Source: an uncultured Candidatus Obscuribacterales bacterium (lineage in GTDB: Bacteria; Cyanobacteriota; Vampirovibrionia; Obscuribacterales; Obscuribacteraceae). Taken from it: 35,808 nucleotides of DNA. A model generated the notes under the pieces. The model worked only from the letters and a program-made list of their open reading frames with translations. It ran no database searches and had not been told where the DNA came from. Shown here piece by piece: positions 3,003 to 27,642 of the stretch (the first letter of the stretch is position 1; the number at the start of each line of letters is the position of its first letter). The position numbers and the translations under genes were made by a program. The stretch spans positions 1-35,808 of the forward strand of contig CAZHEZ010000061.1 in NCBI GenBank assembly GCA_964531315.1, written 5' to 3'.

Positions 3003-3087
3003 GGTCATTGCGATGACTGATATGCCAAGCCGATCTCCTTGAGCAAACGCTCAGGCAGAGCGGCTTGTTTTGGTATCGTATATGGTG
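3003..3087 (+). promoter_or_regulatory. Conserved non-coding module, copy 1 (inverted repeat, long hairpin, 16-nt box)
   Basis: Inverted repeat gGTCATtgcgATGACtg (3003-3019); hairpin gccgatctccttgagc-aaac-gctcaggcagagcggc (3029-3064); box ggtatcgtatatggtg (3072-3087). The same architecture is at 10831-10913 and the same box is at 30701-30716. Confidence 0.5.
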
Positions 3088-3407
3088 TCACAGCTAGCGC
3101 ATGTGCATGAGCCGCGCCAGGTCAGAAAGGCGCGTGTATTCACGCGAAGGTTCTAGTGTTTTTGTTCTGTAACTATTAAAGCTCTTGATTCTTAAGCCAC
3201 GAAGAGGCGACTGTAAGAGTATCTTCCGAAACTTTCTTCTCAGCTTTCACAGCCAACTCCAAAAACTCCTTCTCTTCAACCAGCCGAAGTATTTTTCTTA
3301 GCAGCTCGCTGCTGCGGAGTTTGTTGGGTCGGAAGAATTTCAGCGGGCGGTGGATGCCCTCATAAGCGGGTAGCTCCGCCATCGAACTAACTTTCAAACC
3401 GAAAAGG

Positions 3408-3590
3408 ATGACTCAAATGAGAATCAGAGCTTCAACCACCGCACTTCTTCTTCTCTTTGCCGGCATTATTGGTGCCGTGCAATCGTATCGCATCGATCAC
3501 AACGGTATTCTCCACAGTGTTGTCGGTCTCTTGATCATCGCACTGGCTGTCTTTGTCGTTACCCGCGCCTTTCGTCGACGCCCTACCTGA
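3408..3590 (+). CDS. Small two-helix membrane protein (60 aa), hypothetical
   Basis: ORF with SD aaggatg upstream; two hydrophobic helices (TTALLLLFAGIIGAV, VVGLLIIALAVFVV); sits directly upstream of X1. Confidence 0.4.
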   Translation: MTQMRIRASTTALLLLFAGIIGAVQSYRIDHNGILHSVVGLLIIALAVFVVTRAFRRRPT

Positions 3591-3620
3591 TAAAAACGCA
3601 ATATTCGCGAAGGAAAGCAA

Positions 3621-4328
3621 ATGAGACCAGAATATTACTTGCTTATCATTCTTCTCGCCGCTGCCGTTGCCGGGTCCTTTCGCATGAAAGGTGTTCCTGT
3701 CGAGCACAGTGAAGAAGAGAAAGAAGCTCGCAAGCGCGAAGCTAAGATGAAGGCCGACCTGGCCGACTGGCGACGCATGGACGGCAATGTCATCGACTTC
3801 AGGTATCACCTGGCCAAAGACTTGAATGCGGCTTCACGCTGCTTGCACAGCACGCGCTCCAAGCGTGAAGCGGCGGAACACTGCATTCGTACAGTCGAAT
3901 CGGCGCTGGCCGAGCAAGACAAGCTCGGCTTTGTCACCGATGGATCGGAGATGAATGTCCTGCACGCCACTCAGCACCTGAACGGGTACGAGACCGAATT
4001 CATCAAGGCTCAGCAGGCTGTTCACGCGTATGTGGAGAAAGTCCGTGACCATGTCTTCGATTTGCTGGCTGAATCAGTAAAGATCAGCGAGTGGATGCCT
4101 GAGGTATCGGCTCGTTTGCAGGAGCAGGCACGTAAGCTTGTTGCCGAGATTGAGCCGGAAGCTAAGGCGATGTGGGCAGTCACCGACAGAATGCTGACCG
4201 ATGCAGACAGAGATCCCGCCGGCCTCGCCGACGAGTATGTTACCCCTGGCGTCACCAAGTGGCGAGAAGAAAGAGTGGGGGCGCGCAGAAAAATTCGCGA
4301 TAATCTTGCCTCGAAGATTGGATATTAG
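3621..4328 (+). CDS. Hypothetical membrane-anchored coiled-coil protein, family X (paralog of 14204-15013)
   Basis: SD aggaaag precedes the ATG. N-terminal TM helix (YYLLIILLAAAVAGSF). Shares a C-terminal motif with X2 (VTPGVTKWREERVGARRKI vs VTAGIIKWRQERLEARQLM) and has the same overall architecture. Confidence 0.6.
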   Translation: MRPEYYLLIILLAAAVAGSFRMKGVPVEHSEEEKEARKREAKMKADLADWRRMDGNVIDFRYHLAKDLNAASRCLHSTRSKREAAEHCIRTVESALAEQDKLGFVTDGSEMNVLHATQHLNGYETEFIKAQQAVHAYVEKVRDHVFDLLAESVKISEWMPEVSARLQEQARKLVAEIEPEAKAMWAVTDRMLTDADRDPAGLADEYVTPGVTKWREERVGARRKIRDNLASKIGY

Positions 4329-4503
4329 CGGCATTGCATTGGTGTTCTTGCCAGCGGATTGGGAACCATTGAAAGTGGTCGCCGGACCCGCTGGCTAGTT
4401 CACTGGTGCTTCTCAAATCACTGGTTTCGAAAGTTCAAGTGCATCTCAATCTGCGGAGATTTGAAGACAACTCTCCGCAAACAGAAAACTGAAAGGATAA
4501 GGA

Positions 4504-4905
4504 ATGAATCGCAAACACATTGCGTTGGCCTCAGCCATCGCCATAGTAGGCTCCTGCGCCGTAGCCTATGCATTTAGACCCAATGCCGACTTCATCGAAT
4601 CGCGTTTTGACAAGCTTGATCATATGCCGGATTCAAGTGGCAGCAAAGTCCGCTACAAGCGGGATGGAAGTTTCGTTTTTGTTTGCCTGCGCGTGCCCGG
4701 TCACTATGAAGTGCAGATCTTCCAGATCGACAACGGCATCATGCCGGTGATACCGACCACGATCGTCGACGTCACGGATAAGGAAATTCTGTGGGAGCAT
4801 GATAAGACCGTTGGATGGACGCTTTCTCACAACTCGATTCGCGTCGTCATCAAGAAGCTCGATGGAAACATCGGAGAGGAAAGCCAGGACTTTCATCGCG
4901 AATAG
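4504..4905 (+). CDS. Small secreted/lipoprotein-like hypothetical protein (133 aa)
   Basis: N-terminal signal-peptide-like segment MNRKHIALASAIAIVGSCAVAYA (possible lipobox VGSC); SD aaggataagga upstream. Confidence 0.55.
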   Translation: MNRKHIALASAIAIVGSCAVAYAFRPNADFIESRFDKLDHMPDSSGSKVRYKRDGSFVFVCLRVPGHYEVQIFQIDNGIMPVIPTTIVDVTDKEILWEHDKTVGWTLSHNSIRVVIKKLDGNIGEESQDFHRE

Positions 4906-5018
4906 GACAGCGGCGTAGCTCCAGAAGTGAGCGCGTTTCTGCTATCCGCGACCAGCTTCATCTGCTTTGAAAGTAAGTCAATCCCTGGCACGGAGTGCCA
5001 AAAATGAGGAGTGATACC

Positions 5019-5522
5019 ATGTTTGCACGAATTGCTTCGCTCTTTCCTTCCCGCTGGTCGAGCCGTTCTACAGGCGGTGCTGAGTCCGGCATCATGAGCT
5101 ATGACGTGGTGATCAACTACGTCGACGAGGATCGGGACCCGACCACGAAGACATTCTCCACGCCCGAGTCGCGTGAAGCGGGCGTTTCGAAAATCCTGGC
5201 GGCTGCCGCCGGCACCGGCGAGGATGACGAAAAAGCAATTGCCAGCGTTGTCTTGGAAGATTGCCTGATCTTCTGGAAGCGCAGCAAAGCTACGCCCTCC
5301 ATTCCGGACCGTGCTCCGGTCCTGAAGGGGCAGGGCGAAAAGGTGCTGAGAGTGCGCACCACCGGTAAAGGCACGATTGAAACTGCCGGCTACAGCATGC
5401 GCTCGACGTTGGAGTTACTGAACGTCAAAGGCATGACCAAAGGTCTGGAGCCTGTGGAGGCGTCCGTGATTCTGCGGCGGACCGCCTACGAGCGCCGTTC
5501 GGCGCTCGTGGCTTCTGCGTAA
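5019..5522 (+). CDS. Hypothetical protein (start set at the internal ATG that has an SD)
   Basis: The ORF track gives 4995-5522. The ATG at 5019 is preceded by aggagtg at the right spacing. No recognisable domain. Confidence 0.45.
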   Translation: MFARIASLFPSRWSSRSTGGAESGIMSYDVVINYVDEDRDPTTKTFSTPESREAGVSKILAAAAGTGEDDEKAIASVVLEDCLIFWKRSKATPSIPDRAPVLKGQGEKVLRVRTTGKGTIETAGYSMRSTLELLNVKGMTKGLEPVEASVILRRTAYERRSALVASA

Positions 5523-5747
5523 GTGCTTTTCGGCACAACGACATGAGTTCGGCTCGGAGCTGGTTGAAAAGCCAGCTTCGGGCTTCATTTGGAACTTTGG
5601 CGCTATTACAAGCCACGGTTTCGTATGCCAGTTACTTATTGCGTTTCGAAGATGCGCAATCGGTGCTGGACAAGGGTCATCCTACCGGACCCACATAAGT
5701 CGGCAGGATTTCTCACTGCTCAAAACGAGAGTGAGAGGAGAACGACA

Positions 5748-6239
5748 ATGAAAATTTCAAAGGAACTGATTGATGAAGTGAAATTGCACTTCCAATCCAT
5801 CAAGGCCGATTTCGACAGCAGGGCGATCAACGAAATCATCTTCCCTGAGGTCGCCGCTCAGCCTGTAATCGACCGCATTCCGTTGTTGATTGCTAAAGCT
5901 GTTGCCGCCGGAAGGGACTATGCTGAGATCTGTGAAGTGAGCGACTTCGAAAATGCAGCAGAGGCTGAGCTGTTTAGCGGAGAAAGGCTTTTCTTCATCA
6001 AGCAGAATACCTGGAAGTGGGCGCTGTTGGAGTGCGCTCCTCCTGAGCCGGAATGGCTCATCGGCGCCGCTCTGATGGTGTATAAGTTTTGCATCAGCAA
6101 CGATCTGCGCCCCAAGCTGATGCCTCATCGCAGCAGGTCGATTCAAAGCGGCGAAAAGTCTGCGGGATGGTATTACAGCAAGATGATTGTCCGCTGGCAG
6201 AAGGAGCATATCAACAAGCTGCTCGGCATCACGGGATAG
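5748..6239 (+). CDS. Hypothetical protein, family Y (paralog of 15306-15824)
   Basis: SD gagagg precedes the ATG at 5748. Blocks shared with Y2: RIPLLIAKAVAAGRDYAEICEVSDF…GERLFF…EPEWLIGAA…VYKFC…NDL…SGEKSAGW…IVRWQKEHINKLLG vs RIPELIARAVLSKRSYVDLCEVSDF…GERLFF…ESEWLVGAA…VYAFC…NDL…NGQRSASW…TIRWDREAIEKLLN. Confidence 0.65.
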   Translation: MKISKELIDEVKLHFQSIKADFDSRAINEIIFPEVAAQPVIDRIPLLIAKAVAAGRDYAEICEVSDFENAAEAELFSGERLFFIKQNTWKWALLECAPPEPEWLIGAALMVYKFCISNDLRPKLMPHRSRSIQSGEKSAGWYYSKMIVRWQKEHINKLLGITG

Positions 6240-6636
6240 TCGAACTTCGAAACTATAGTGACCGCTAGAGTCGCTGCTGGGAAATAGTTCCAGCCGGTTA
6301 AGTGATGGCATTCAGGAGAGGGATGGTTTTGCAAGTCGTCCTTCTCCTGTTTGCCGTTATTTTCAAAGTAGTTTCCTTCAACTGTAAACATTGAAAATTC
6401 GAGTGGGGTGACATTCGCAAATATTTGTCGGTCCCGATTTTTTTTGATCTCAGTATTACTATACAATATAAAAGGCTGAGCATAAGTGGATGATTTGCGA
6501 GGCTGTGTGCCGTTTTTGGAAACCCATAGGCTAAAAGTGATGGTGGCGATTTCTCTCACGTATCTCTCACGTTTCAGTTCGTATTGTCATTGAGTGGCCG
6601 TTCTGCGGCGCATCTAGGCAGTCAAACAATACAACT

Positions 6637-6676
6637 AAAGCGCGGCATTCAGAAGCAATTCTGAATACCGCGCTTT
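6637..6676. terminator. Strong bidirectional intrinsic terminator (18-bp stem, GCAA tetraloop)
   Basis: aaagcgcggcattcagaa-gcaa-ttctgaataccgcgcttt is a near-perfect palindrome with one mismatch. It is flanked by A's upstream and by TTTGTGTGTG downstream. Confidence 0.6.
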
Positions 6677-7106
6677 GTGTGTGCCACCGCAGGTAGTGGC
6701 ATTGCTTAGCGCGGTTTGCGCATGCAGATATAGCTGTGCGATAGCAACGAAAGCAATTCTCGTGCCGATTTGCCTCTGAACGCTTTTTTCTCCGCCATCG
6801 ATTTGCGATAGTTCCCTTGTTATTTCAACCACCAATGCCAGTTAGATATCTCCCGCCCTTTCCAATCGCCACCTATTATCTCGGCATCTAAGCAACGACT
6901 TTTTGTCGAGCCTCGCTGACCCTGCTGTTTTTCGGCATCACTGAGATGTCTGCAAAGCAGTCGAGGGGATGAAGGAGAGCTTAGTTTGAGGCACAGTTTC
7001 CTTGACGGGAGACTGTTTTGTCGATGGAAGAATTGTCGGTTTCCATCGAGAGAGCGCTTCAACCTGCCTTCCTGCTTACTGGGAAGGCGCAACAGAAAGC
7101 ATCACA

Positions 7107-8108
7107 ATGTTCAAACACACAAGCTTAATTCTGTCCACTGCCCTGGCAATCGGACTGGTCCTGTCGCCAGTCAATTCCATGGCCGGCCCACGTGACACGT
7201 TTACGGTCGCTCTGGCTGCGCGCGTGTTGCCTTCCACTGTGACCATCGACGCCACCGATTCTTTCGACAGAGAATCCATCGGTTCCGGATTCATCATCGA
7301 CAGATCCGGTTTGGTGCTCACCAACGAGCATGTCATCACCGGCGCCGAGACCATCAAGGTCAAAGTCTACGGCGACAAAGATTTCAACGAAGCCACGCTG
7401 ATTTTTGTCGACCCGGGAAATGACCTGGCGGTATTGAGGATCAAATCCAACGGCAAGACCTATCCGGAGTTGGAGCTGGGTCCCAGCTCCGACCTCAAGG
7501 TGGGAGAGCCGGCCATCGCCATCGGCTCGCCGTTCGGAGAAGAATTTACCGTTTCTCAGGGGATCATCTCTAAGCTGCACGTTCTTCTCCCTTGGGACGA
7601 GGGCGACGTCAATAGGGTGCGCAAGTACTTGATTCAGACCGATGCAGCCATCAACCCCGGCAACAGCGGCGGCCCTCTCTTCAATGCCGAAGGAGAGGTG
7701 GTCGGCATCAACGAACTGAAGAAAGGTGCAGCTGGAATAGGCTGGGAGATTACGGCCAATCGCGCCACGCGCGTTTTGTCCGTTGCTCTTAGTGCTTCCA
7801 ACGTGGCCGGCATTTTGCATGGTATCAAGTCCGTCGAATTGAAGGTGCTCGCACCTACCGGCGACGATCGCCAAGCTGTGATCGTCAAGGAATTGGAAGC
7901 AGCAGGACCGGCTTCGGAGGTGCTCCAAGTCGGCGACCGCATCTTCAAAATCGAGGACCGCTATATTCGCAACGCCTTCGATCTGGAGCGTTCTCTGTGG
8001 TCCCACAAAGCAGGCGATCAGGTGAAGGTGGTCATCATCCGGCTCGATCAAATGATGGAGGTGACTCTGACGGTTGCCGATGCAAAAGCGACTGAGAGCA
8101 AAGACTGA
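7107..8108 (+). CDS. HtrA/DegP-family trypsin-like serine protease with a C-terminal PDZ-like domain, secreted
   Basis: Signal peptide MFKHTSLILSTALAIGLVLSPVNSMA. Catalytic triad motifs TNEHV (His), GNDLAVL (Asp) and GNSGGP (Ser). C-terminal ~90 aa are PDZ-like. The ORF track starts at 7002; the signal-peptide Met is at 7107. A terminator follows. Confidence 0.85.
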   Translation: MFKHTSLILSTALAIGLVLSPVNSMAGPRDTFTVALAARVLPSTVTIDATDSFDRESIGSGFIIDRSGLVLTNEHVITGAETIKVKVYGDKDFNEATLIFVDPGNDLAVLRIKSNGKTYPELELGPSSDLKVGEPAIAIGSPFGEEFTVSQGIISKLHVLLPWDEGDVNRVRKYLIQTDAAINPGNSGGPLFNAEGEVVGINELKKGAAGIGWEITANRATRVLSVALSASNVAGILHGIKSVELKVLAPTGDDRQAVIVKELEAAGPASEVLQVGDRIFKIEDRYIRNAFDLERSLWSHKAGDQVKVVIIRLDQMMEVTLTVADAKATESKD

Positions 8109-8153
8109 TGCTGTCGGACTAAGGTCCCTGGCAGCCAGAGCCTAACAAGCTTC

Positions 8154-8206
8154 CAGAGGGGATGGTCAATCTTGGTCATCCCCTCTGTTGCCTAGCTTTT
8201 TTGTTC
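8154..8206. terminator. Intrinsic terminator after the HtrA gene (probably also serves the convergent 8334-9254 gene)
   Basis: Hairpin cagaggggatg-gtcaatcttggt-catcccctctg followed by gcctagcTTTTTTgttctg. Confidence 0.6.
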
Positions 8207-8333
8207 TGATTCAATGCTACAAAAGATAGTAGCGGCTCTTTCGAAAAAATATTCCCAAAAGGAAACAGGCAGTGTGAGAGCGAAGCTGAAGGCCGCTGAC
8301 CTCCGTCTTCGCTCTCTCACATTGTTTGTCTTT

Positions 8334-9254
8334 CTAGCTGCGGGCGTAGTTGACGTACCCGCAGCGATTGAAGAACCGCAGTCCAAGCTTCGAACAGGCG
8401 TGATAGGAATCGTCTTTCATTCTGGCCATGTCGAGGCAGGTATTCTGCAACAAGATAGCCATCTCCTTCATCTTGCTGCCGAATTTCTGGCTCGGATTGT
8501 CTCGCCACTTCTTCAGTTGAGCGCGGGCGCGGTAAAAGGCCCCTTCATTGTCGATGATGCGCTGCCAAAATCCCTCCGGCAGCGGTGCGTCTTGCAGCTC
8601 CCTGCGCATGGGGGCGATATATTCAAGGGCGCGCTCGACTTTGAGAATCAGCTCGCTTAGAACATATTGACGAGCCTGATAGGCGGTTTGCGGCAGTGCG
8701 AAGTCCCCGAGCATCCCTCGGAACGACTGCAGCATGGCTTCGTTTTCGGCGATGAATCGATTCAGGCGTCCTTCCACCTTCGCTTTGTGTGCAGGTCGAT
8801 AGACACCGCCGAGTCCGGCAGCAATCCTTTTGTTCTGTATGAGCACGCTCTCAAGAGCCCTGATAGACGAGAGCAGCTGAGTTGCTTCGAAGCTGCCTGT
8901 TTGCATGTTGTTTACGATTGTCCAGGTTTCCTCGTCGAGCACAGCATCATGTCGGGCGACGCCTGCCAGCGCGGCAATGACATTGCAGGTCTGTTCGGCT
9001 TGCAGCTTCATTTCATCCAGGAAGCCGTAGAACTGGTTGGCTCCGTACCAGACGGCGACAATAGCCTTAACTTCCGGCTGGTCGCCGATGAAGTCTCCGC
9101 CTACCGTCGTGAACTTCCTGTCGAGAAGTAATCCTAATGAATCATGCGGCTGACTTGCCGCGGTTTTGCTGAAGGCAACGGTGTGCTCGAAACGATTGAT
9201 GTCGCGCAGCCATTTATACGGCTGCAAATCGATACTTTGCGGATCAATGCTCAT
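8334..9254 (-). CDS. Hypothetical protein (306 aa)
   Basis: Long minus-strand ORF with SD ggaga 7 nt before the ATG at 9254. The plus-strand ORFs 8214-8660 and 8667-9131 are read as shadows. No recognised domain. Confidence 0.55.
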   Translation of the reverse strand: MSIDPQSIDLQPYKWLRDINRFEHTVAFSKTAASQPHDSLGLLLDRKFTTVGGDFIGDQPEVKAIVAVWYGANQFYGFLDEMKLQAEQTCNVIAALAGVARHDAVLDEETWTIVNNMQTGSFEATQLLSSIRALESVLIQNKRIAAGLGGVYRPAHKAKVEGRLNRFIAENEAMLQSFRGMLGDFALPQTAYQARQYVLSELILKVERALEYIAPMRRELQDAPLPEGFWQRIIDNEGAFYRARAQLKKWRDNPSQKFGSKMKEMAILLQNTCLDMARMKDDSYHACSKLGLRFFNRCGYVNYARS

Positions 9255-9407
9255 AGATGTTCTCCAAGCTGTTTGAGATCTAGAGGTGCATAGGCATCCA
9301 AAGTCAGCCAGTGGTCTGCATTGCGGGCCACTGGCTGACTTTGAATAAAACCAAAGGGCGAGCCCCGAGCCGTAGCCCAGCGCTCGCCCTCACTTCATTG
9401 GTTTCGA

Positions 9408-10142: not shown

Positions 10143-10830
10143 TGGGACACCTTTTGCGGTTTGCGCAGGAGTCCTCGAGTGGCCAAACAAGACCTGAAAT
10201 TGCCGAAGCTTCTGAATCAGTCCGATTGATGTTTTTCAGAGCTGTCATTGCAAATAGCCTTTTTTGGCGGCAGGATCATCCTGTGCCCTTATGCTATTTG
10301 CGCCAGGTATCCGTCATCGAGCAGGTCTTGTGCCTGGTCGTGCAGTCCTGACTCAACCAACAGTTCGCCGCGCCTGCTTCACACCCGGGCCGTCGAAGTC
10401 CTCCACCATAAGTGGTGAAAAGAATGCTTCGATGACGAGGTCAGGATGAGAAGACGAGGATTGTTCCAGAGAAACTACAGGGTGAAAAGTTGATACTTGA
10501 AATTACCAATTTCTCATCCTTAAGTCCACTGAAATCGGCTTCTACAGATAAATTTCCAATATTAAAATTCGCACAGCTGCGCCACCATATGCGGTGGCGG
10601 AAACACGAAAAGCCCGATACGCATGTATCGAGCGAAAGATAATATGAGGTCGAGAAGATGTTTTGTGTATGCACAGGATAGAGTCCAGTTTATGAACTTA
10701 TCGTGAACGCTGCGACATTTACGAAAATAGCTTTCACTCTGGATTCACACGTTGGAGGCTAAACTGCCTTAACTCATCAGCCATTCACAGCTCTTGAGCA
10801 TCTGCGACTTCTCTCAAACAATTATTCGTC

Positions 10831-10913
10831 AGTCACTGAGGTGACTGCTATATAAAGCCGATCTCCTTGAGCGAAAGCTCAGGCAGATCGGCTTTGTGGT
10901 ATTGTATATGGTG
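10831..10913 (+). promoter_or_regulatory. Conserved non-coding module, copy 2 (inverted repeat, TATA-like, GAAA-capped hairpin, 16-nt box)
   Basis: Perfect palindrome caGTCACtgagGTGACtg (10831-10848); ctatataaa; perfect hairpin gccgatctccttgagc-gaaa-gctcaggcagatcggc (10857-10892); box ggtattgtatatggtg (10898-10913), followed by the GCGCGGCCGCGC palindrome. Confidence 0.5.
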
Positions 10914-11200
10914 GCAAAGTTGGCGCGGCCGCGCGAATGCTTGGCGCGCTGAAATCGCCTATTAAAGAGGCTCTTTCATTAGACCGCGCGCTAACCGTAC
11001 TAAGTCGAATTGCAAGATCAAGTAATGTGTAAAATCCATGTCTATTGACTGAGAGTACGGCAAAATGGCACCGTTTAAATATCTTTCGTCTTCTCCATTC
11101 AAATCGCGCAATCTCTCTCTAAAGCATTCTTCTCTCTCGATTAGAGGCAGTAATCACAGCACTTCGGTGCTGCGCGCGACCCCGGATGAGGCGAAATCCA

Positions 11201-11485
11201 AGCCCAGCCATGAAGGAGCTGCACATGACCCCCGCCACCTATGCTGCAAACTTCTCGAAGGTTTGTGATACGGCATCTAAGTTTTTGTCTGATGAGCATC
11301 GCAAACATGTGATCGATCGCGCCGGCTTTTCCCTGACCTTCTTTCAGTCCGGAGCCAGCACGAGCGATGCAGCCTTGCGTACGGTTTGTATCGAAGCGGC
11401 ATATCGCGAACTGCGTGCTGCTGCTAAGGAGCTCAACTACTATGGCAACTTCGTCGTCACCGGCTGGATTCCCGTAACGTTTTAG
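11201..11485 (+). CDS. Small hypothetical protein, family Z (paralog of 16698-16970)
   Basis: SD aaggag lies 7 nt before the ATG at 11201; the ORF track starts at 11186. Shared with Z2: TPATYAANFSKVCDTA / PKLQAYTDAVTKISDAA, FFQS/FYQA, AAYRELRAAAKEL/AAVRELTAAAKYL. Confidence 0.55.
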   Translation, partial: SPAMKELHMTPATYAANFSKVCDTASKFLSDEHRKHVIDRAGFSLTFFQSGASTSDAALRTVCIEAAYRELRAAAKELNYYGNFVVTGWIPVTF

Positions 11486-11635
11486 TTACGTCGCAGTAGA
11501 CCTTACCTCGCAATTGTGAGCATGCAGTGGAAATACGTTTCCGCTGCGGACCTGTCGCCGGGCTTGAGAGCCTGAGTTTCAACATGAAATGCCCAACTGC
11601 AACCCGAATGATTACCGCCAAGATAGGAACATCAA

Positions 11636-12706
11636 ATGGCGAACAATTCCATCACGATTTCCGGACGAGTGTTCGTTTCGAGGAGCCTGGAGGAGATCTA
11701 TCCTGCGCGCCCCGTACCCAAGTTTCCGCAACCCGGTGACATCATGGTCTGGTGCCGGCTCGATAATGCCGGACGCGCTGCCGTTAAGCGTGGCAATCGC
11801 GACTATGGCTGCTCCGGCAACTTTCAGGCGTCTATATTTGACGGGCAAAAGTGGCGCAAATTTCACACGCGCAATTTTGTCAGAGAGAGCATCACCAAGT
11901 ATGCGACCCACTGCGAGAGGGGCTGGAAGATTGAACTGATGATCGAGGCGCTCGAAATGCATGCGGACGAAGTTGTTGCTCTGGTGGAGACAAACTACCA
12001 GTTGAGCGGTTCTCTCTCCGGGGCAATGAAGGCGCAAGACAGAGCGGCAGCAGCTCGAGCAAGAGAGGTTGCAGAGTCCAAACTGCTTGGGCAGGAAATC
12101 ATCCAATCGGTTGAACTGATCAAGCAACGGAAATTCAAGCTCGCATATAAGCTGTTGTGCAGCGCTGAAGTGGTCGAAGGCCGCGTTCGTTTGATGGCTT
12201 TCGAGAGTGTCTCCGGTCCTGTGTATCAGGTCGACTTGAAATGCGGGTTGCGCGGACTGCTCAGCTCAAAGTTCCTCAAGTGCGACGAGTCTGATCGCCG
12301 GCAACGGTGCGAAAGCATCAAGGCTGGTGATGTGCTGCGTGTCCGAATTTCCAGAATCCGAGACAACTTCGGCATGTGTGAGGTGGAGTTGGTCGAAGAT
12401 GGTGCCGATCTTCCGCGTGAGATTCGCCGTGCCTATCAATCCTGCGGCGAAGTGTTTCAAGTTACGGTAATCGACACAGCAACCAACAAAGACGGTTGCT
12501 TCGGTTTGTTTGTGCGCGTCATGGACCAATTTCGCGCACTGCTGCATGTGAATGCGATGGCAGGCAAGACTCGTGCAGAACGCCTCCGGCGCCTGCAGGA
12601 GCTTCGCGAAGTTGGCAGGTTTCCCGCCAAACTTCTTGCGGTCGACAACAATTGTGGCGTGCTCCGCATTAATGTGGGCCCGTTGCCTAGCATTGCAAGA
12701 CTCTAA
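11636..12706 (+). CDS. Hypothetical protein with two S1-like (OB-fold, RNA-binding-like) segments
   Basis: 356-aa ORF. S1-like patterns GDVLRVRISRIRDNFGMCEVELVEDGA and GEVFQVTVIDTATNKDGCFGLFVRVMDQFRALLHVNAM (cf. the G..V.G.V…GaFV.l..g..GLlHiSe motif of S1 domains). Confidence 0.5.
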   Translation: MANNSITISGRVFVSRSLEEIYPARPVPKFPQPGDIMVWCRLDNAGRAAVKRGNRDYGCSGNFQASIFDGQKWRKFHTRNFVRESITKYATHCERGWKIELMIEALEMHADEVVALVETNYQLSGSLSGAMKAQDRAAAARAREVAESKLLGQEIIQSVELIKQRKFKLAYKLLCSAEVVEGRVRLMAFESVSGPVYQVDLKCGLRGLLSSKFLKCDESDRRQRCESIKAGDVLRVRISRIRDNFGMCEVELVEDGADLPREIRRAYQSCGEVFQVTVIDTATNKDGCFGLFVRVMDQFRALLHVNAMAGKTRAERLRRLQELREVGRFPAKLLAVDNNCGVLRINVGPLPSIARL

Positions 12707-12878
12707 GACTTGGAATTTCTACCACGAAACCTTGTGAACATGCCGATGCGCAGATGGCAATCTTGTTGGCGGATCTGTTTCTCCTTGAGAAACGCGAAAG
12801 GACCCGCTTGCCAGGTTACCGGATATTGTCGGCATTTTCATAGGTTGTGCCAGACCCAGCCAACACAAGGAATCTCCA

Positions 12879-13277
12879 ATGATTGCCATCTCCAACGATG
12901 CCCTCTATCAGCGTTTTCTTTCTGCCTGCGAACTGCAAGCCGTCCTAGACTGCAATTTGCTCAATGCCTTGAGGACCGTTAATGCCTTCTGCTTTCACCT
13001 GGAGCACGGCGAAATGAAACCCTTTTACGAGCGTTTCGCTCTGGCCCGGAATCTGTCAACAGCGGCCACCGAAGCGATGAAGGCGGCGGCCTGGAGTTTG
13101 CTCGACCGCGACCATGTGGAGACCTTTTTCCGCCTGGTCGACCAGTCTTGTCGGGAAGCGGTAGGTGCTCTCGACTTCGCGATTGCGCAACGGGATGACG
13201 ACAGATTCCCGCCTTTTCGCGATCGGCTGAAGGCAGCCAGCGCGCGTGCCAATTCGGTCTCTGTCGGCACTCTCTAA
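12879..13277 (+). CDS. Hypothetical protein (132 aa)
   Basis: ORF with SD aaggaa 6 nt upstream of the ATG. No recognised domain. Confidence 0.45.
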   Translation: MIAISNDALYQRFLSACELQAVLDCNLLNALRTVNAFCFHLEHGEMKPFYERFALARNLSTAATEAMKAAAWSLLDRDHVETFFRLVDQSCREAVGALDFAIAQRDDDRFPPFRDRLKAASARANSVSVGTL

Positions 13278-13355
13278 TGGCGTAGCGACTGCGGTTTTCA
13301 GCTTTCGGACAGGACACTGTTTTCTGCGTGAAACTTCCTGGAAAGGAGAGACCAA

Positions 13356-13580
13356 ATGGGAAAAATATTCGATCACAAAGGGGGCGTGGCTTTTTTGATC
13401 ATGCCGGCACACCCGAGCGAACCGGTGCCGATGGGCTGGCTTGCTCGTGAACTGTTCAATCACGGTGCTGAGCGTCTTCTGGATGCAATTAAGGAGCACC
13501 AAATCGGCGACGCAATAGCAGCGATTGCTCTTATTTGCCGATCCCTGCGCTGGAAAATTCTTGGTATCAGGAGCAAGTGA
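13356..13580 (+). CDS. Hypothetical small protein (74 aa)
   Basis: Strong SD aaggagag 7 nt upstream of the ATG. Followed immediately by repeat R1. Confidence 0.45.
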   Translation: MGKIFDHKGGVAFLIMPAHPSEPVPMGWLARELFNHGAERLLDAIKEHQIGDAIAAIALICRSLRWKILGIRSK

Positions 13581-13592
13581 GCCGGACGGTGG

Positions 13593-13654
13593 TTTTCAAC
13601 GAGTGGTGACAAACAGCTGGGGGAGGGTTTATCCGAAGCATTCCTTCTTCTGAT
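13593..13654 (+). repeat. Intergenic repeat R (copy 1) found just 3' of plus-strand genes
   Basis: ttttcaacgagtggtgacaaacagctgggggagggtttatccgaagcattccttcttctgattgt matches 15041-15112 (ttttcaatgacaaggtgacaaacagcagggagagggtttccggcgaaacgttccgtcttctgtttgtt). Confidence 0.55.
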
Positions 13655-13752
13655 TGTCATTGTTTTCGAATGCGGAGCGATTCGCATTCCAGTCAGGCAA
13701 TATGTTTTAAGATCCCATCAAGGCGATGGATCGCAACTGAGGAGCAAAGAGC

Positions 13753-13923
13753 ATGGGTGTCAACGTTGTCCAGCTGCTTTTGGATTTCGTCCGGCTTTTG
13801 GCGGACTGCTGCAATCCCAACGGCAAGCTGCACCGCAAGTACGGCGGCAAATCGCGTCGTCCTCATCGTCCGCACCGTCCTCACGGACATCACCGGCCGC
13901 GCCGGCGTCGCCGCTTTCCTTAA
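13753..13923 (+). CDS. Small ORF (56 aa) with a His/Arg/Pro-rich C-terminal tail …RRPHRPHRPHGHHRPRRRRRFP*
   Basis: ATG at 13753 with SD gaggag upstream. The tail and the stop codon are encoded by a repeat that is also found at 14118-14155. Below the cut-off of the ORF track. Confidence 0.3.
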   Translation: MGVNVVQLLLDFVRLLADCCNPNGKLHRKYGGKSRRPHRPHRPHGHHRPRRRRRFP

Positions 13924-13960
13924 GCGGCGGCGTCAATTACGTACTGAAAGGAAAAGACTC

Positions 13961-14152
13961 ATGACCAAGAAAGAAAAGAAGCCAAAACATCTCGTCTTTG
14001 CCAATCAAGAACCTTGTCGGGCTGTTCTGGGTACTGTCGGTATGCTGGTTGCACTTGAAGCGATAAAGTCAGCTTCGCCAGCACCAACTGATTCGCCGCA
14101 AGAGGTAGCACATCGTCCGCACCGGCCGCGCCGGCGCCGCCGCTTGCCATAA
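13961..14152 (+). CDS. Small ORF (63 aa) with a His/Arg/Pro-rich C-terminal tail …HRPHRPRRRRRLP*
   Basis: ATG at 13961 with SD aaaggaaaag upstream. Ends with the same tail repeat as 13753-13923. Same frame and stop as the 160-aa track ORF 13670-14152, which has no SD. Confidence 0.4.
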   Translation: MTKKEKKPKHLVFANQEPCRAVLGTVGMLVALEAIKSASPAPTDSPQEVAHRPHRPRRRRRLP

Positions 14153-14203
14153 GCGGCGGCATCAATGCAGGAAGAAAATGAACCAGGCGAAAGGAAACAC
14201 TAG

Positions 14204-15013
14204 ATGCCGATATGGGTTCTCGGTTTGATTTGTTTTGTGATCGTGTACTTCGCACTCGGTCTTGGGCGCACGCAAAAGCCTGATACCGAAGGCGTCAGAG
14301 CCGCGATGGAGGCACAAAGAAAGCGCCTGGAAGCTCTGCGGCTCAAAGAGCTGCGCGCCAAAGATCATGAATTCCGTGCTGCAGACTCTGTGTTCGGTCC
14401 AAGAATCATCGATTTGCAACACGCGTTGGATCGGTCCATTGAGAGTGGTTCTGCGCTGAGGAATCAGTTGCAGGCCGACAGGGCTGAGCTGGAAAAGGGC
14501 ATCGTGGTAATTGAGACAGCAATCTCAGCCCGCGATGCAGGTGACGGCAACTCCACTTGCTCTGCGGAGGTGCTCGCATTCATGAAAGATGCGTGCGCGA
14601 AGCTGGAGAGGCAGTTCGTCAAGTCTGTCATCGCGCTGAATCGCTGCGCTGACAATGCTCGTTTTGCCGAGTCTAGCTTGCGTCGAGAAACGCTCAAATT
14701 GTCCGGCTGGATGAAGGAGCGCTCCGAAGCTGCACAAGCGAGAGCCGCCGAGCTCCTCTCTGAGGCGGAGCGAACTCTTTGCGAGCAGCAGCGGAGAATG
14801 GCGTCTATTTTCGCGGACGTCGAAACGCAACCGCAAGGGGTGACGGGCGAGAAAGTTACTGCCGGCATCATCAAATGGCGGCAGGAGAGGCTCGAGGCCC
14901 GTCAGTTGATGGCTCTTGAAGAGGGCGGCAATAGCGGGCTTGCCAGCGGATTGTACCTCTCGGACGATGTTGTCTGGAACCCGCTTGCAAGCAGACCTGG
15001 TGTCTTGGCGTAG
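14204..15013 (+). CDS. Hypothetical membrane-anchored coiled-coil protein, family X (paralog of 3621-4328)
   Basis: SD aaggaaa upstream of the ATG. N-terminal TM helix IWVLGLICFVIVYFALGLG. C-terminal motif VTAGIIKWRQERLEARQLM shared with X1. Followed by repeat R copy 2. Confidence 0.6.
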   Translation: MPIWVLGLICFVIVYFALGLGRTQKPDTEGVRAAMEAQRKRLEALRLKELRAKDHEFRAADSVFGPRIIDLQHALDRSIESGSALRNQLQADRAELEKGIVVIETAISARDAGDGNSTCSAEVLAFMKDACAKLERQFVKSVIALNRCADNARFAESSLRRETLKLSGWMKERSEAAQARAAELLSEAERTLCEQQRRMASIFADVETQPQGVTGEKVTAGIIKWRQERLEARQLMALEEGGNSGLASGLYLSDDVVWNPLASRPGVLA

Positions 15014-15040
15014 CTCAAATCTAGTTCTGGCAGTGAAGCG

Positions 15041-15112
15041 TTTTCAATGACAAGGTGACAAACAGCAGGGAGAGGGTTTCCGGCGAAACGTTCCGTCTTC
15101 TGTTTGTTCCGG
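15041..15112 (+). repeat. Intergenic repeat R (copy 2)
   Basis: See 13593-13654; this copy lies directly after the X2 stop codon. Confidence 0.55.
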
Positions 15113-15305
15113 CGCGATTTTGTGGACGAATCACCGGCTACTTCGGAAATAAGCACCACCGTCGGCGATAAGCGCAAGCTCTCAAGGAGATTGTGGTTAG
15201 TACAGGCAATCTTGTCAGCGGATTTGGCTTCTCGCGAAGAGGCTGTCTAGAACTCGCTTGCTAGATTACTTGTCCTGTTTCACAGCAAAAAAGAAAGGCG
15301 ATACC

Positions 15306-15824
15306 ATGAAGATTCAAGAGCAGTTGATTGGACAAGTGCAGTCACAAGTGGACGAAATCCACGTACGATATGCAACACTTCTTTGTGAGGAGGAGACATT
15401 TGCCCATGTGGCGGGCAATCTCGTCATCACCCGCATTCCGGAACTGATTGCGCGGGCCGTTTTGTCGAAACGGTCATACGTGGATCTTTGCGAGGTAAGC
15501 GATTTCGGTCCTGCGGCGACCGATCCGTTGTTCACCGGCGAGCGACTCTTTTTCGTACCGCCGGACATCACCCAGTACTTTGACTTTGAAGGCCGACCAG
15601 AATCGGAGTGGTTGGTCGGCGCAGCCAAGTATGTTTACGCCTTCTGCGAGGCAAATGACCTCTATCCGTATTTGGAACCTTCGCAAGTCAAATCGGTATC
15701 GAATGGCCAGCGCAGTGCGTCGTGGAGTTGCTCGCGTCTGACGATCCGCTGGGATCGGGAAGCCATCGAAAAACTCCTGAATCTCAGGACATTCGGTGAA
15801 TTTAACGTCCTGGGACATCGCTAA
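15306..15824 (+). CDS. Hypothetical protein, family Y (paralog of 5748-6239)
   Basis: ATG at 15306 (MKIQEQLIG…), aligned with the Y1 start MKISKELID. Conserved blocks are listed under the 5748-6239 feature. Confidence 0.65.
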   Translation: MKIQEQLIGQVQSQVDEIHVRYATLLCEEETFAHVAGNLVITRIPELIARAVLSKRSYVDLCEVSDFGPAATDPLFTGERLFFVPPDITQYFDFEGRPESEWLVGAAKYVYAFCEANDLYPYLEPSQVKSVSNGQRSASWSCSRLTIRWDREAIEKLLNLRTFGEFNVLGHR

Positions 15825-15851
15825 TCGACACAAGCGTCGCAACAAAAGGAC

Positions 15852-16658
15852 TTGCCGGAGGTCGTCGGCATGTTCGATCAACGAAAGAAGAAAGCAATGA
15901 AAAACCCACTGAGATTAACTGCTGTTTTGCTTGGACTGCTGCTCTTTTCTTACGCGTCCTATTTGGGCGCGTTTATAGTCAGTGCTCCGTCCATTCCACG
16001 GGATTACGAGAAATTCGTGGCTTTCGAATCACGTCTCGACACCATCGTCGATCAACACTGGAGCCGCCCTGATGCTGTTCCAACTGATGACGAGATTGCC
16101 GCATATCGAAAGCTGATCGACGAACTCAACACCTTCGATTATGCTCCGCTGATGCGGCAGCATGACCGAGCCCTGGCCCAGCTGCCATCCGCGCAAGAAC
16201 GGATGCTCAGTTCATCGCGGCCGTTCATGTCTATCTACCAGTCCCTCACTCCATACGTCGGCGAGAATGTCGCAATCGGCGCCGCTTATGCCGTTGTCGG
16301 CGCGAGCCTGTACACGCATCACTACTACTACGAGCATGTACAGATCAGCCGCCTTCTCACTGCGCGCATGGTCAACCTTCGCTCCGATGTTCGGTATCAC
16401 CTGGCAATGGCGCTGATTTTCGCCAATGACAATCAGGGAGCCGTCGATCAATTGTTGATGGTCTGGCGTGAAAACCCTGAATACGCGAAAATATACGGCA
16501 TGTACTCAATCGGCGCGCGTGCTCATGCTGAAAAGAATCTCGACTTTGTCTCGGCTGTTTTGCCTTCCCCCGCCAGCCAACAATGGTTTTCCGTCCTCGA
16601 TGAGGACGAGAAGAAAATGCGCCCCTGGCACGGCAACAAACTCTACGACCCTCGCTGA
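15852..16658 (+). CDS. Hypothetical secreted or membrane-anchored protein (268 aa; alternative starts at 15870 and 15897)
   Basis: N-terminal hydrophobic segment LRLTAVLLGLLLFSYASYLGAFIV after a basic stretch; SD ggagg 9 nt upstream of 15870. No recognised domain. Confidence 0.55.
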   Translation: MPEVVGMFDQRKKKAMKNPLRLTAVLLGLLLFSYASYLGAFIVSAPSIPRDYEKFVAFESRLDTIVDQHWSRPDAVPTDDEIAAYRKLIDELNTFDYAPLMRQHDRALAQLPSAQERMLSSSRPFMSIYQSLTPYVGENVAIGAAYAVVGASLYTHHYYYEHVQISRLLTARMVNLRSDVRYHLAMALIFANDNQGAVDQLLMVWRENPEYAKIYGMYSIGARAHAEKNLDFVSAVLPSPASQQWFSVLDEDEKKMRPWHGNKLYDPR

Positions 16659-16697
16659 CATGTTTGGAAACACCGCGGACCAAAGAAGGACATCTCC

Positions 16698-16970
16698 ATG
16701 ACCGGAATTATCATGCCAAAGCTGCAGGCGTATACGGACGCCGTCACCAAGATCTCCGACGCGGCCGACCGTTGTGCGGCGAACCATCATCGGGAACACG
16801 CGCGGGAGCGTATACGCACTTCGTTGTCGTTCTATCAGGCCGTCGTTACTACGTCGAACCCCATGATGTGCGCCGTCAGCTTCGAGGCTGCCGTCCGCGA
16901 GCTGACAGCAGCTGCTAAATACCTGAAACTGGAGTCCGCAGTCGGCTCACTTGCTTCTTCGGCTCTCTGA
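16698..16970 (+). CDS. Small hypothetical protein, family Z (paralog of 11201-11485)
   Basis: See Z1. The alignment suggests the Met at 16713 may be the true start. Confidence 0.5.
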   Translation: MTGIIMPKLQAYTDAVTKISDAADRCAANHHREHARERIRTSLSFYQAVVTTSNPMMCAVSFEAAVRELTAAAKYLKLESAVGSLASSAL

Positions 16971-27622: not shown

Positions 27623-27642
27623 TCGCTGGTAAGGAAAATTCC

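What the first reader, a model, noticed from the sequence alone, without database searches (positions are those of the whole stretch)
3408..16970. Three unrelated uncharacterised protein families (X, Y, Z) recur together in two loci on the same strand
Family X is a TM-anchored coiled-coil protein with the C-terminal motif VT(P/A)G(V/I)(T/I)KWR(E/Q)ER(V/L). Its copies are 3621-4328 and 14204-15013. Family Y has conserved blocks RIP.LIA.AV…CEVSDF…GERLFF…EW(L)(I/V)GAA…VY.FC..NDL…RW..E.I.KLL. Its copies are 5748-6239 and 15306-15824. In both loci Y lies downstream of X: adjacent in locus 2, with two small genes between them in locus 1. Family Z is ~90 aa with (F)(F/Y)Q(S/A)…AA(Y/V)REL(R/T)AAAK(E/Y)L. 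Its copies at 11201-11485 and 16698-16970 bracket locus 2. Repeat R (13593-13654 and 15041-15112) follows genes in locus 2. The conserved upstream box/hairpin module precedes both loci (copy 1 at 3003-3087, copy 2 at 10831-10913). Repeated co-occurrence of unrelated families is a classic signature of a multi-component system or an expanded effector/immunity-like set. None of the families matched a domain I recognise.
Basis: seen in the sequence. Interest (0 to 1): 0.75.

Follow-up and report, generated by a model that had tools for sequence, protein, structure and literature searches.

The report
Orphan three-family gene cluster in Obscuribacterales
Three unrelated protein families with no known relatives recur together in a changeable chromosome region of a non-photosynthetic cyanobacterium (Obscuribacterales). 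The same linkage appears in related genomes, so they probably act together, but their function is unknown.

Summary

The window is a whole contig from an Obscuribacterales MAG. The families are very rare: an exhaustive HMM search of 1.84 billion representatives found 14 Y hits, and X and Z have only a handful of relatives.

The linkage recurs elsewhere:
- One ENA contig carries X-Y-Z in the same order as locus 2.
- A syntenic NCBI MAG contig carries four X and two Y copies behind the same upstream module.
- A third contig carries X-X-Z.
- The Y1 subfamily occurs without X in three other loci, so the conserved adjacency is specific to the Y2 type.

Y genes carry two types of conserved structured 5' leader that Rfam does not contain.

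My best reading is a lineage-restricted, fast-evolving membrane-associated module whose role is unknown. The effector/immunity label is not supported.

The parts
2982..3100 (+). Upstream module, copy 1. It consists of a GGTCA-N4-TGACC-like palindrome, an 18-bp hairpin (AAGCCGATCT...AGAGCGGCTT) and the box TGGTATCGTATATGGTG. It sits at the head of locus 1, about 300 nt before the first gene.
   Evidence: Direct repeats D4 and D8, alignment, folding. A third copy at L092 2493-2618 is 80% identical and sits at the head of the X/Y cluster there. Conservation is in sequence rather than by covariation, which points to DNA-level operator/promoter sites, possibly with a terminator hairpin. This is inference.
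3408..3590 (+). g3408: a 60-aa protein with two hydrophobic helices and an Arg-rich C-terminal tail (RAFRRRPT). It ends 31 nt before X1.
   Evidence: ORF list; only weak sub-threshold Pfam membrane hits. The tail resembles those of the small proteins S1 and S2 upstream of X2. No homology was shown.
3621..4328 (+). X1, family X: an N-terminal TM helix followed by a roughly 200-aa helical bundle, with the C-terminal motif VTPGVTKWREERV.
4504..4905 (+). g4504: a 133-aa protein with a signal or lipoprotein-like N-terminus (IVGSC).
   Evidence: ORF list and hydrophobic N-terminus. No family hit. No homolog in the related loci.
4995..5522 (+). g4995: a protein of up to 175 aa, a fourth family seen near Y.
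   Evidence: Its C-terminal 83 aa are 42% identical (E 7e-16) to a partial gene two genes upstream of a Y2-type gene in L005.
5585..5747 (+). Y1-type structured 5' leader. It has a long-range helix, two mutually exclusive or pseudoknotted stems (GGGTC/GACCC and ATCCTNCCG/CGGNAGGAT), and a covarying hairpin that ends at the Shine-Dalgarno sequence.
   Evidence: Conserved upstream of Y1-type genes in L002, L006 and L008. Across the structure, 88.7% of cells are paired versus 36-47% when partners are slid. Covariance model R1 hits only these sites. The 95-nt core is 76-83% identical where the coding sequences are 52-54%. L093 has a fully compensated stem. No Rfam match.
5748..6239 (+). Y1, family Y (Y1 subtype): a soluble 163-aa protein with an N-terminal helical hairpin and an alpha/beta domain.
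6637..6676 (.). An 18-bp GC-rich palindromic hairpin downstream of Y1, probably the end of the locus 1 transcription unit.
   Evidence: Terminator scan.
10810..10926 (+). Upstream module, copy 2, at the head of locus 2.
   Evidence: (folding z-score -5.0).
11225..11485 (+). [not shown]
11636..12706 (+). g11636: a 356-aa basic protein (pI 9.4, 11 Cys) with a weak S1-like match.
   Evidence: Pfam S1 at E 0.033, below threshold. Its C-terminal half is 56% identical to the first gene of L090. Charge calculation.
12879..13277 (+). g12879: a 132-aa hypothetical protein.
   Evidence: ORF list; called as a gene on metagenome contig L001; no family hit.
13356..13580 (+). g13356: a 74-aa hypothetical protein.
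   Evidence: ORF list; called on L001.
13593..13654 (+). Repeat R, copy 1: a long imperfect hairpin after g13356.
   Evidence: Repeat D16; fold -24.3 kcal/mol, z-score only -1.8. Not found in other loci.
13753..13923 (+). S1: a 56-aa protein with a hydrophobic N-terminal helix, a CC pair and an extremely basic His/Pro/Arg tail ending RRRRRFP.
   Evidence: 57% identical to the 60-aa gene directly upstream of X in L090; pI 12.
13961..14152 (+). S2: a 63-aa protein with the same HRPHRPRRRRRLP tail. A GC hairpin overlaps its stop codon, and it ends 51 nt before X2.
   Evidence: DNA repeats D3 and D11; sequence; called as a gene on L001.
14204..15013 (+). X2, family X.
   Evidence: 49% identical to L092 5334-6119.
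15041..15112 (+). Repeat R, copy 2: a hairpin after X2.
15196..15305 (+). Y2-type 5' leader: a long-range helix (GGCAATCTTGTYAGCGG with CYCGCTTGCYAGRTTAC) that encloses a hairpin of variable length.
   Evidence: Conserved in the X-to-Y spacers of L007 and L092.
15306..15824 (+). Y2, family Y (Y2 subtype).
   Evidence: 35-40% identical to the Y genes that follow X in L007 and L092, and to the Y gene of L005, where no X is within the 980 bp upstream. Metagenome contig L001 carries an amber codon at Ser54.
15852..16658 (+). g15852: a protein of about 250-268 aa with an N-terminal signal or TM segment, probably periplasmic.
   Evidence: ORF list; homolog (35-45% identity, in fragments) inside the L092 cluster at 4478-5233; hydrophobic segment.
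16698..16970 (+). [not shown]
   Evidence: 72% identical to the Z gene that follows X-X in L090, just before the same convergent neighbours: the g17324 homolog and TrpRS.

Best explanation
X, Y and, more loosely, Z are three unrelated orphan protein families. As far as the databases show, they are confined to Obscuribacterales, a group of non-photosynthetic cyanobacteria. They travel together in one changeable chromosomal neighbourhood that begins with a conserved palindrome/hairpin/promoter-like module.

- X is a small protein held in the inner membrane by one N-terminal helix. Its roughly 200-residue antiparallel helical bundle is predicted to face the cytoplasm.
- Y is a soluble, mildly acidic cytoplasmic protein made of a helical hairpin and an alpha/beta domain. 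It resembles no solved structure convincingly.

I think the most likely arrangement is that X and Y2-type proteins work as a membrane-associated pair, with X as anchor, scaffold or sensor and Y as its soluble partner. Z and the small Arg-tailed proteins upstream of X would be accessory parts. Y production would be gated separately by conserved structured 5' leaders.

The families diverge much faster than their neighbours, and their copy number differs between close relatives. This pattern is typical of conflict-type or environment-facing functions, such as defence or stress response at the membrane.

Shown: paralogy, lack of relationship between the families, rarity, conserved linkage, and the conserved leaders.
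Inferred: topology, physical interaction, regulation and biological role.
For: Paralogy and independence of the families.

Rarity and lineage:
- 14 Y hits among 1.84 billion representatives.
- X and Z searches return essentially only the window's own proteins plus one extra Z.
- The one named Y homolog is from an Obscuribacterales MAG.
- The window's TrpRS is 89-92% identical to the copies in the named Obscuribacterales MAG (L010) and in the syntenic contigs L090 and L092.

Linkage elsewhere:
- L007 carries X-Y-Z.
- L092, in the syntenic slot between the nucleoside deoxyribosyltransferase gene and TrpRS, carries the module, four X copies, a g15852 homolog and two Y copies.
- L090 carries the small S protein, then X, X and Z.

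Fast divergence: X and Y counterparts are 40-49% identical where neighbouring proteins are 65-92%.

Structure and topology:
- X model: a TM helix plus a helical bundle. Lys/Arg residues cluster after the TM helix in all six X copies that carry the N-terminal TM helix (sequences).
- Y model: pLDDT 90. Y has no signal peptide and pI 5-7.

Separate regulation: conserved Y1-type and Y2-type leaders.

Shared head module at both loci and in L092.
Against: - No experiment or multimer prediction links X to Y physically.
- Y1-type genes occur without X in L002, L008 and L006, so Y does not strictly need X.
- L090 has X and Z but no intact Y.
- The related loci are syntenic, so the shared adjacency may be inherited rather than selected. 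The number of independent observations is small: four contigs carry X.
- Genes are separated by 150-300-nt spacers with hairpins, so a single operon is not evident.
- The only evidence of gene decay is one amber SNP and broken copies in L092. That assembly has many broken genes and may simply be error-prone.
- No defence or toxin signature was found.
Confidence: 0.4

Rival explanations
1. Passive paralogy. The region is a duplication-prone, fast-evolving stretch of lineage-specific genes. X, Y and Z recur near one another only because tandem and segmental duplications copy whatever lies there. Related genomes share the arrangement by descent, and the families do not work together.
For: - The contig holds several other tandem paralog sets: W in three copies, and a duplicated unit of a 457-aa gene plus a LemA-like gene.
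- In L092 the order is X, X, Y, Y rather than repeated X-Y units.
- Y1-type genes stand alone in other genomes.
- The gene content between the same flanking genes differs among the window, L090 and L092.
- All contigs that carry X are syntenic or too short to judge.
Against: - X-Y adjacency survives divergence to 35-50% protein identity, and the genes around it are reshuffled.
- The X1/X2 and Y1/Y2 splits predate the divergence of these genomes, yet both types stay in the same cluster in L092.
- The X-to-Y spacer is itself a conserved leader in three genomes.
- X-Y-Z keep the same order in L007.
Confidence: 0.3
2. A polymorphic effector/immunity or toxin/antitoxin-like set. One family would be a toxic or membrane-active effector and another its cognate protector, diversifying in arrays.
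For: - Multi-copy, rapidly diverging small genes with variable copy number.
- A membrane-anchored helical protein next to a small soluble protein.
- Small, extremely basic peptides (S1, S2) beside X.
- A population-level nonsense variant in Y2.
Against: - No toxin, nuclease, peptidase, secretion-system, Rhs, LXG, WXG or immunity domain in Pfam, NCBIfam or PADLOC.
- Neither Y nor Z has a signal peptide, and X has no exported toxin-like C-terminus.
- No secretion machinery on the contig.
- X copies outnumber Y copies and Y can occur alone, which does not fit strict cognate pairs.
Confidence: 0.1
3. An envelope-spanning or lysis-like cassette. g3408 or S would be a holin-like small membrane protein with a basic tail, X an i-spanin-like type II membrane protein with a periplasmic coiled coil, and g4504 an outer-membrane lipoprotein partner.
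For: The architectures in locus 1 resemble, from general knowledge of phage lysis genes, holin (small, two TM helices, charged C-terminus), i-spanin (N-terminal TM helix plus coiled coil) and o-spanin (lipoprotein). g15852 is probably periplasmic.
Against: - No PHROG hit was found for the ten cluster proteins tested (X, Y, Z, g4504, g4995, g11636, g15852; g3408 and S were not scanned), and no relatives were found in viral contigs.
- There is no endolysin in the cluster and no prophage context.
- Four tandem X copies in a conserved chromosomal slot do not fit a lysis cassette.
- Most X N-termini lack any positive residue before the TM helix and have 3-5 Lys/Arg after it, which favours a cytoplasmic bundle.
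- Cytoplasmic Y and Z have no place in this scheme.
Confidence: 0.05
4. A housekeeping-type membrane scaffold pair. X would be a miniature EzrA- or spectrin-like membrane-anchored bundle and Y an Alba/SepF-like alpha/beta adaptor, acting in cell-envelope or division organisation.
Against: - Housekeeping scaffolds are not normally multi-copy, hypervariable, restricted to one order, and 40-49% diverged between genomes whose TrpRS is 91% identical.
Confidence: 0.05

Closest known systems
Alba / Pop7 (Rpp20) / Smr / R3H small alpha/beta nucleic-acid-binding folds (closest to Y)
   Different: - Foldseek finds nothing below E 0.08, and no sequence profile matches.
- Y adds a 50-residue N-terminal helical hairpin.
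- Y is acidic to neutral (pI 5-7) rather than basic.
- The Smr catalytic motifs, recalled from memory, are not evident in Y.
Generic membrane-anchored helical-bundle proteins: EzrA/spectrin-like repeats, the ClyA-type bundle, the STAT coiled-coil domain, the MIC60 bundle (closest to X)
   Different: - There is no sequence similarity to any family.
- X is much shorter than EzrA.
- X carries its own conserved C-terminal K(W/F)R(E/Q)ER helix.
Variable gene arrays in defence islands or polymorphic toxin-immunity loci
   Same: Multi-copy, quickly diverging small genes sit in a slot flanked by conserved genes, and copy number differs between close relatives.
   Different: None of the proteins matches a defence, toxin or immunity model. 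No mobile-element or secretion genes are present.
Cis-regulatory 5' leaders such as riboswitches and ribosomal-protein or other protein-binding leaders (closest to the Y leaders)
   Same: The leaders are 110-170 nt long, lie directly upstream of the Shine-Dalgarno sequence, are more conserved than the coding sequence, and show compensatory changes and variable-length hairpins.
   Different: - No Rfam family matches, even at E up to 1.
- Only 3-5 examples of each type are known.
- The ligand or binding partner is unknown, and no expression data exist.

Membership tests
Any curated protein family (Pfam-A, NCBIfam) | A profile match for X, Y or Z at or above the curated cut-off | tested here: not met
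   Pfam gives no hit for Y or Z. X has only sub-threshold hits: E 0.006-0.18, at most 17 bits against cut-offs of 22-90. NCBIfam gives nothing near its cut-offs.
Known anti-phage defence systems (PADLOC-DB v2) | At least one component matches a defence-system model | tested here: not met
   None of the ten cluster proteins matches any family at E up to 1.
Phage-derived cassette (holin/spanin or another PHROG family) | Similarity to phage protein families, or presence on viral contigs | tested here: not met
   PHROGs gives one meaningless X hit at E 0.049 and nothing else. No relatives of X or Y were found in two IMG/VR scans.
Phage-derived cassette (holin/spanin or another PHROG family) | The coiled-coil domain of the i-spanin is periplasmic (N-in, C-out topology) | tested here: inconclusive
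   Judged only from charge distribution. X N-termini carry 0-1 positive residues and the 15 residues after the TM helix carry 3-5, which favours a cytoplasmic bundle. No topology predictor or experiment was available.
Polymorphic toxin / immunity (effector-immunity) loci | A recognisable toxin or delivery domain (Rhs, LXG, WXG100, CDI, a T6SS marker, a nuclease or a deaminase) with an adjacent cognate immunity gene | tested here: not met
   None of the 30 window proteins scanned against Pfam contains such a domain. Z has no WXG100 match at E up to 1.
Polymorphic toxin / immunity (effector-immunity) loci | One component is toxic and its neighbour neutralises it | not testable with these tools
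   This needs expression experiments.
[not shown]
   [not shown]
Known RNA families (Rfam 15) for the Y leaders, Repeat R and the upstream module | A covariance-model match at gathering score, or at least E up to 1 | tested here: not met
   No match at gathering score across the whole window. In 2800-17100 at E up to 1 there are only two chance-level hits, neither in these elements.
Conserved gene neighbourhood (functional linkage of X, Y and Z) | The adjacency recurs in other genomes | tested here: met
   - L007 carries X-Y-Z(partial).
- L092 carries X,X,X,X...Y,Y.
- L090 carries X,X,Z.

Caveats: the loci are syntenic or short, and Y1-type genes lack X in L002, L006 and L008.

The most novel reading that the evidence does not exclude
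X-Y(-Z) is a previously unrecognised membrane-associated system specific to non-photosynthetic cyanobacteria. It is built from proteins with no known relatives, and Y may have a new fold. Its soluble component would be controlled by two new classes of structured 5' leader RNA, either riboswitch-like or bound by Y itself for autoregulation. The system would be diversifying in a hypervariable island because it mediates conflict, such as anti-phage or anti-competitor defence, or predation-related functions.
Probability: 0.15. Interest if true: 0.75.

Novelty: categorically new. Interest (0 to 1): 0.5.

Why it matters
Obscuribacterales and other Vampirovibrionia are uncultured sister lineages of the photosynthetic cyanobacteria, and most of their lineage-specific genes are unannotated. 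This cluster offers:
- a concrete, conserved gene linkage among three orphan families;
- a confidently modelled protein (Y) with no convincing structural match;
- two candidate cis-regulatory RNA motifs absent from Rfam.

If X and Y prove to act together, they would define a new membrane-associated module and give these genomes a handle for experiments. If they do not, the locus is still a clear example of how duplication-prone islands can mimic 'systems'. The practical value is limited by how few genomes carry it and by the lack of any functional clue.

Tried and rejected
- **Curated libraries.** Pfam, NCBIfam, PADLOC and PHROGs scans of X, Y, Z and their neighbours gave nothing usable.
- **PDB sequences.** A profile search with the Y alignment gave nothing.
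- **Protein database searches.** Word-indexed searches with Y2, the X alignment and the Z alignment returned essentially only the window's own proteins plus one Z. The exhaustive profile search was needed to find Y relatives.
- **Collection scans.**
  - The genome-contig scan with the Y alignment found nothing because the automatic patterns were poor. I spent the second scan on TrpRS to identify the organism.
  - A hand-made degenerate DNA pattern for the Y1 leader found only a sibling contig of the window itself.
  - Viral contig scans for X and Y were negative.
- **Structure tools.**
  - The AFDB Foldseek library was unavailable.
  - No multimer prediction was possible.
- **Remote homology.** hhalign of X, Y and Z against every neighbouring protein in the related loci found nothing except a distant fourth X in L092. 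The four 257-282-aa genes upstream of the L008 Y homolog, the L005 177-aa protein and the L002 neighbours all gave nothing.
- **Promoter reading of the module.** A sigma-70 consensus scan gave no more hits than shuffled sequence, and no convincing promoter in the module.
- **Y leader as coding sequence.** I considered that the conserved region upstream of Y1 might be an N-terminal coding extension. I rejected this because in L006 the similarity falls in a different reading frame from Y.
- **Literature.** A search for Obscuribacterales returned only ecological and 16S surveys.

Full report
**1. Observation**

The three paralog pairs exist at the stated coordinates and are significant:
- X1 vs X2: 26% identity over 167 aa, E 2e-15.
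- Y1 vs Y2: 44% over 161 aa, E 3e-47.

An all-vs-all BLASTP of every ORF of at least 40 aa in the window recovers these pairs and no further copies. HMM searches and tblastn agree. Profile-profile comparison shows X, Y and Z are unrelated to each other, with probabilities at or below 0.9%.

Repeat R and the upstream module are also real. In Repeat R, 13605-13630 and 15054-15079 are 92% identical and both copies fold as long hairpins. The module copies at 2982-3100 and 10810-10926 are 78-82% identical.

The same all-vs-all search shows that this contig holds other paralog sets. There are three tandem W genes at 18831-20448 on the minus strand, and a duplicated two-gene unit at 26249-30486 consisting of a 457-aa protein and a weakly LemA-like protein. 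Paralog recurrence alone is therefore not unusual here.

**2. Source organism**

The window is an entire 35,808-bp contig held by NCBI, JGI and ENA. Its TrpRS is 89% identical to that of an 'uncultured Candidatus Obscuribacterales' MAG, and only 46-60% identical to the next-best bacteria, mostly photosynthetic cyanobacteria and alphaproteobacteria. The one Y homolog that carries a name is also from an Obscuribacterales MAG. Two JGI metagenome contigs match parts of the window with a single mismatch each: L001 covers 12871-16436 and L094 covers 4731-6648.

**3. Rarity and lack of known relatives**

- X, Y, Z and their neighbours have no match in Pfam, NCBIfam, PADLOC or PHROGs.
- The Y profile finds nothing among PDB sequences.
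- An exhaustive HMM search of 1.84 billion representative proteins with the Y1+Y2 profile returns 14 hits (E up to 0.001). Four of these are fragments of proteins already counted: two of the window's own Y genes and two of the broken Y copy in L092.
- The X and Z profile searches of the 5.8-billion-protein index return the window's own proteins and a single extra Z. Further X copies came to light only in the loci fetched through Y and Z.
- No relatives are on viral contigs.

**4. Linkage in other genomes**

Contigs encoding the Y and Z homologs were fetched and searched with BLASTP, HMMs and tblastn.

| Contig | Source | Arrangement |
|---|---|---|
| L092 | NCBI GCA_024708845.1, 15.5 kb | Syntenic with the window from the 8334-9254 homolog and the nucleoside deoxyribosyltransferase gene to TrpRS and beyond. 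Between them: an 80%-identical copy of the upstream module, then a distant X, an X, a g15852 homolog, an X2-like X (49%), an X1-like X (48%), a broken Y, an 81-aa gene, a Y2-type Y (40%) and two unrelated genes. |
| L005 | Logan, 1.8 kb | A g4995 homolog, an unrelated membrane protein, then a Y2-type Y. |
| L006 | 4 kb | Y1-type homolog; no X on the contig. |

Four conclusions follow.
- X next to Y is conserved for the Y2 subfamily. It holds in three of the four loci with at least 1 kb of upstream sequence.
- Z joins X in two further contigs but is missing from L092.
- Y1-type genes are usually independent of X.
- L092 holds both X1-like and X2-like genes in one cluster. The window's two 'loci' are therefore parts of one variable neighbourhood, split by three conserved genes, and not two independent assemblies of the same parts.

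X and Y counterparts are 40-49% identical between genomes whose flanking proteins are 65-92% identical. Either they evolve quickly or they turn over among paralogs.

**5. What the proteins look like**

- very basic small proteins with hydrophobic heads and poly-Arg tails directly upstream of X (S1 and S2 here, one in L090, and perhaps g3408 upstream of X1);
- a basic, Cys-rich protein with a sub-threshold S1 match (g11636);
- a probably periplasmic protein (g15852).

**6. Non-coding elements**

Genes in the cluster are separated by spacers of 150-300 nt, and several of these spacers are conserved.

*Y1-type leader.* The roughly 165 nt upstream of Y1 align with the regions upstream of the Y1-type genes in L002, L006 and L008. 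The 95-nt core is 76-83% identical among the window, L002 and L006, where the coding sequences are 52-54% identical. The proposed structure has four parts:
- a long-range helix;
- a GGGTC/GACCC stem;
- a competing or pseudoknotted ATCCTNCCG/CGGNAGGAT stem;
- a hairpin ending at the Shine-Dalgarno sequence.

In this structure 88.7% of cells are paired, against 36-47% when partners are slid, and six pairs change on both sides. With four sequences this is suggestive only. A covariance model finds the element only upstream of Y1-type genes. The weak fifth hit, upstream of the distant Y homolog P0013 in L093, has a fully compensated stem (TTCGCCTG/CAGGCGAA) around the same ACCCA loop.

*Y2-type leader.* This is a different leader, shared by the X-to-Y spacers of the window, L007 and L092. 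A long-range helix encloses a hairpin of about 16 to 70 nt.

*Z leader.* The leader in front of Z in L007 is 89% identical to the sequence in front of the Z remnant in L090, while the adjacent X genes are 61% identical at the DNA level.

None of these elements matches Rfam.

*Head module.* It is conserved in sequence rather than by covariation and contains palindromes. This fits operator/promoter DNA, possibly with a terminator hairpin. A sigma-70 consensus scan was uninformative.

**7. Interpretation**

The evidence establishes a lineage-restricted, conserved but flexible gene neighbourhood in which X and Y2-type genes, often with Z and small basic proteins, stay together. It does not establish what they do.

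My preferred reading (confidence 0.4) is a membrane-associated module: X as the anchored scaffold or sensor, Y as a soluble partner whose synthesis is separately controlled by its leader, and Z and S as accessories. Fast divergence and copy-number variation hint at a conflict or stress role.

The main rival (0.3) is passive paralogy in a duplication-prone island, with the shared arrangement inherited by descent.

Lysis-cassette and cytoskeletal-scaffold analogies (0.05 each) rest only on architecture or on weak fold resemblance.

Signs of gene decay should be read with care. The amber codon in Y2 on metagenome contig L001 is a single SNP. The broken Y in L092 lies in an assembly where many conserved genes are also fragmented.

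**8. Novelty and score**

No known family or system fits, so by distance from known kinds the cluster is new. What is new, though, is a set of uncharacterised families in a poorly sampled lineage, with no mechanism in hand. I score interest at 0.5. The linkage is real and the leader RNAs are an unexpected bonus, but the sample is small and no functional clue exists.

Noticed in passing
window 5585-5747; L002 9836-10003; L006 640-800; L008 9850-10003; L093 1-71: A conserved structured 5' leader lies upstream of Y1-type genes and is more conserved than the coding sequence (76-83% vs 52-54% nt identity). It shows compensatory changes and possible alternative or pseudoknotted stems next to the Shine-Dalgarno sequence. 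It is absent from Rfam and is a candidate new cis-regulatory RNA.
   Followed up: yes
window 15196-15305; L007 543-705; L092 6893-7012: A second, different leader lies in the X-to-Y spacer of Y2-type genes. A conserved long-range helix (GGCAATCTTGTYAGCGG with CYCGCTTGCYAGRTTAC) encloses a hairpin whose length varies from about 16 to 70 nt.
   Followed up: partly
L007 1290-1427 and L090 3278-3424: The leader in front of a Z gene is 89% identical between two contigs whose adjacent X genes are only 61% identical at the DNA level. In L090 it precedes just a short remnant of a second Z (MVDFKAYTV...).
   Followed up: partly
window 15466 (Y2 codon 54): JGI metagenome contig L001 is identical to the window over 3566 bp except for one C-to-A change. 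That change turns Ser54 of Y2 (TCG) into an amber stop, so the gene caller split Y2 there into 53-aa and 114-aa products.
   Followed up: yes
window 18583-18640, minus strand: The tryptophanyl-tRNA synthetase gene is split by a frameshift. The N-terminal 27 codons (MKTTHSRILSGVRPTGNVHLGNYL...) are in a different frame from the remaining 290 codons. This is either an assembly indel or a real disruption of an essential gene. The homolog in L092 is intact at 337 aa.
   Followed up: partly
window 18831-19286, 19398-19853, 19996-20448, minus strand: A fourth orphan family (W, about 150 aa, 34-42% identical) is present as three tandem copies next to TrpRS. L090 and L010 have one copy at the same place. 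L092 has two broken copies.
   Followed up: partly
window 26249-28311 and 28439-30486: A tandem duplication of a two-gene unit. One gene encodes a 457/461-aa membrane protein (61% identical, no Pfam hit). The other encodes a protein of about 220 aa with a weak LemA match (53% identical).
   Followed up: partly
window 10190-10750 vs L092 1834-2388: About 560 nt of apparently non-coding sequence lies between the nucleoside deoxyribosyltransferase gene and the module. It is 74% identical between the two genomes and contains a strong minus-strand terminator-like hairpin at 10612-10633. It could be an unannotated gene or an RNA.
   Followed up: no
window 13753-13923 and 13961-14152; L090 881-1063; compare window 3408-3590: Small, extremely basic proteins (pI about 12) with a hydrophobic head and a His/Pro/Arg tail ending RRRRR(F/L)P sit directly upstream of X genes. 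In the window a GC hairpin overlaps their stop codons. g3408, upstream of X1, has a similar RRRPT tail but shows no demonstrable homology.
   Followed up: partly
window 30697-30729: A third, partial copy of the module's box (TTGGTATTGTATATGGTATCAGACTTAGCGC) lies about 240 nt upstream of a 93-aa membrane-protein ORF at 30972-31253. This suggests the box is a reusable promoter-like element.
   Followed up: no
L092, whole locus: Many conserved genes in this NCBI MAG contig are broken into pieces, including homologs of the window's 476-aa protein, g15852 and W. The assembly is probably error-prone, so its 'frameshifted Y' should not be taken as a pseudogene.
   Followed up: partly
window 27-149 and L092 9725-9973: A short ORF at the very start of the window is 58% identical over 31 aa to an 82-aa gene at the far end of the L092 cluster. 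This hints at further shared small genes around these islands.
   Followed up: no
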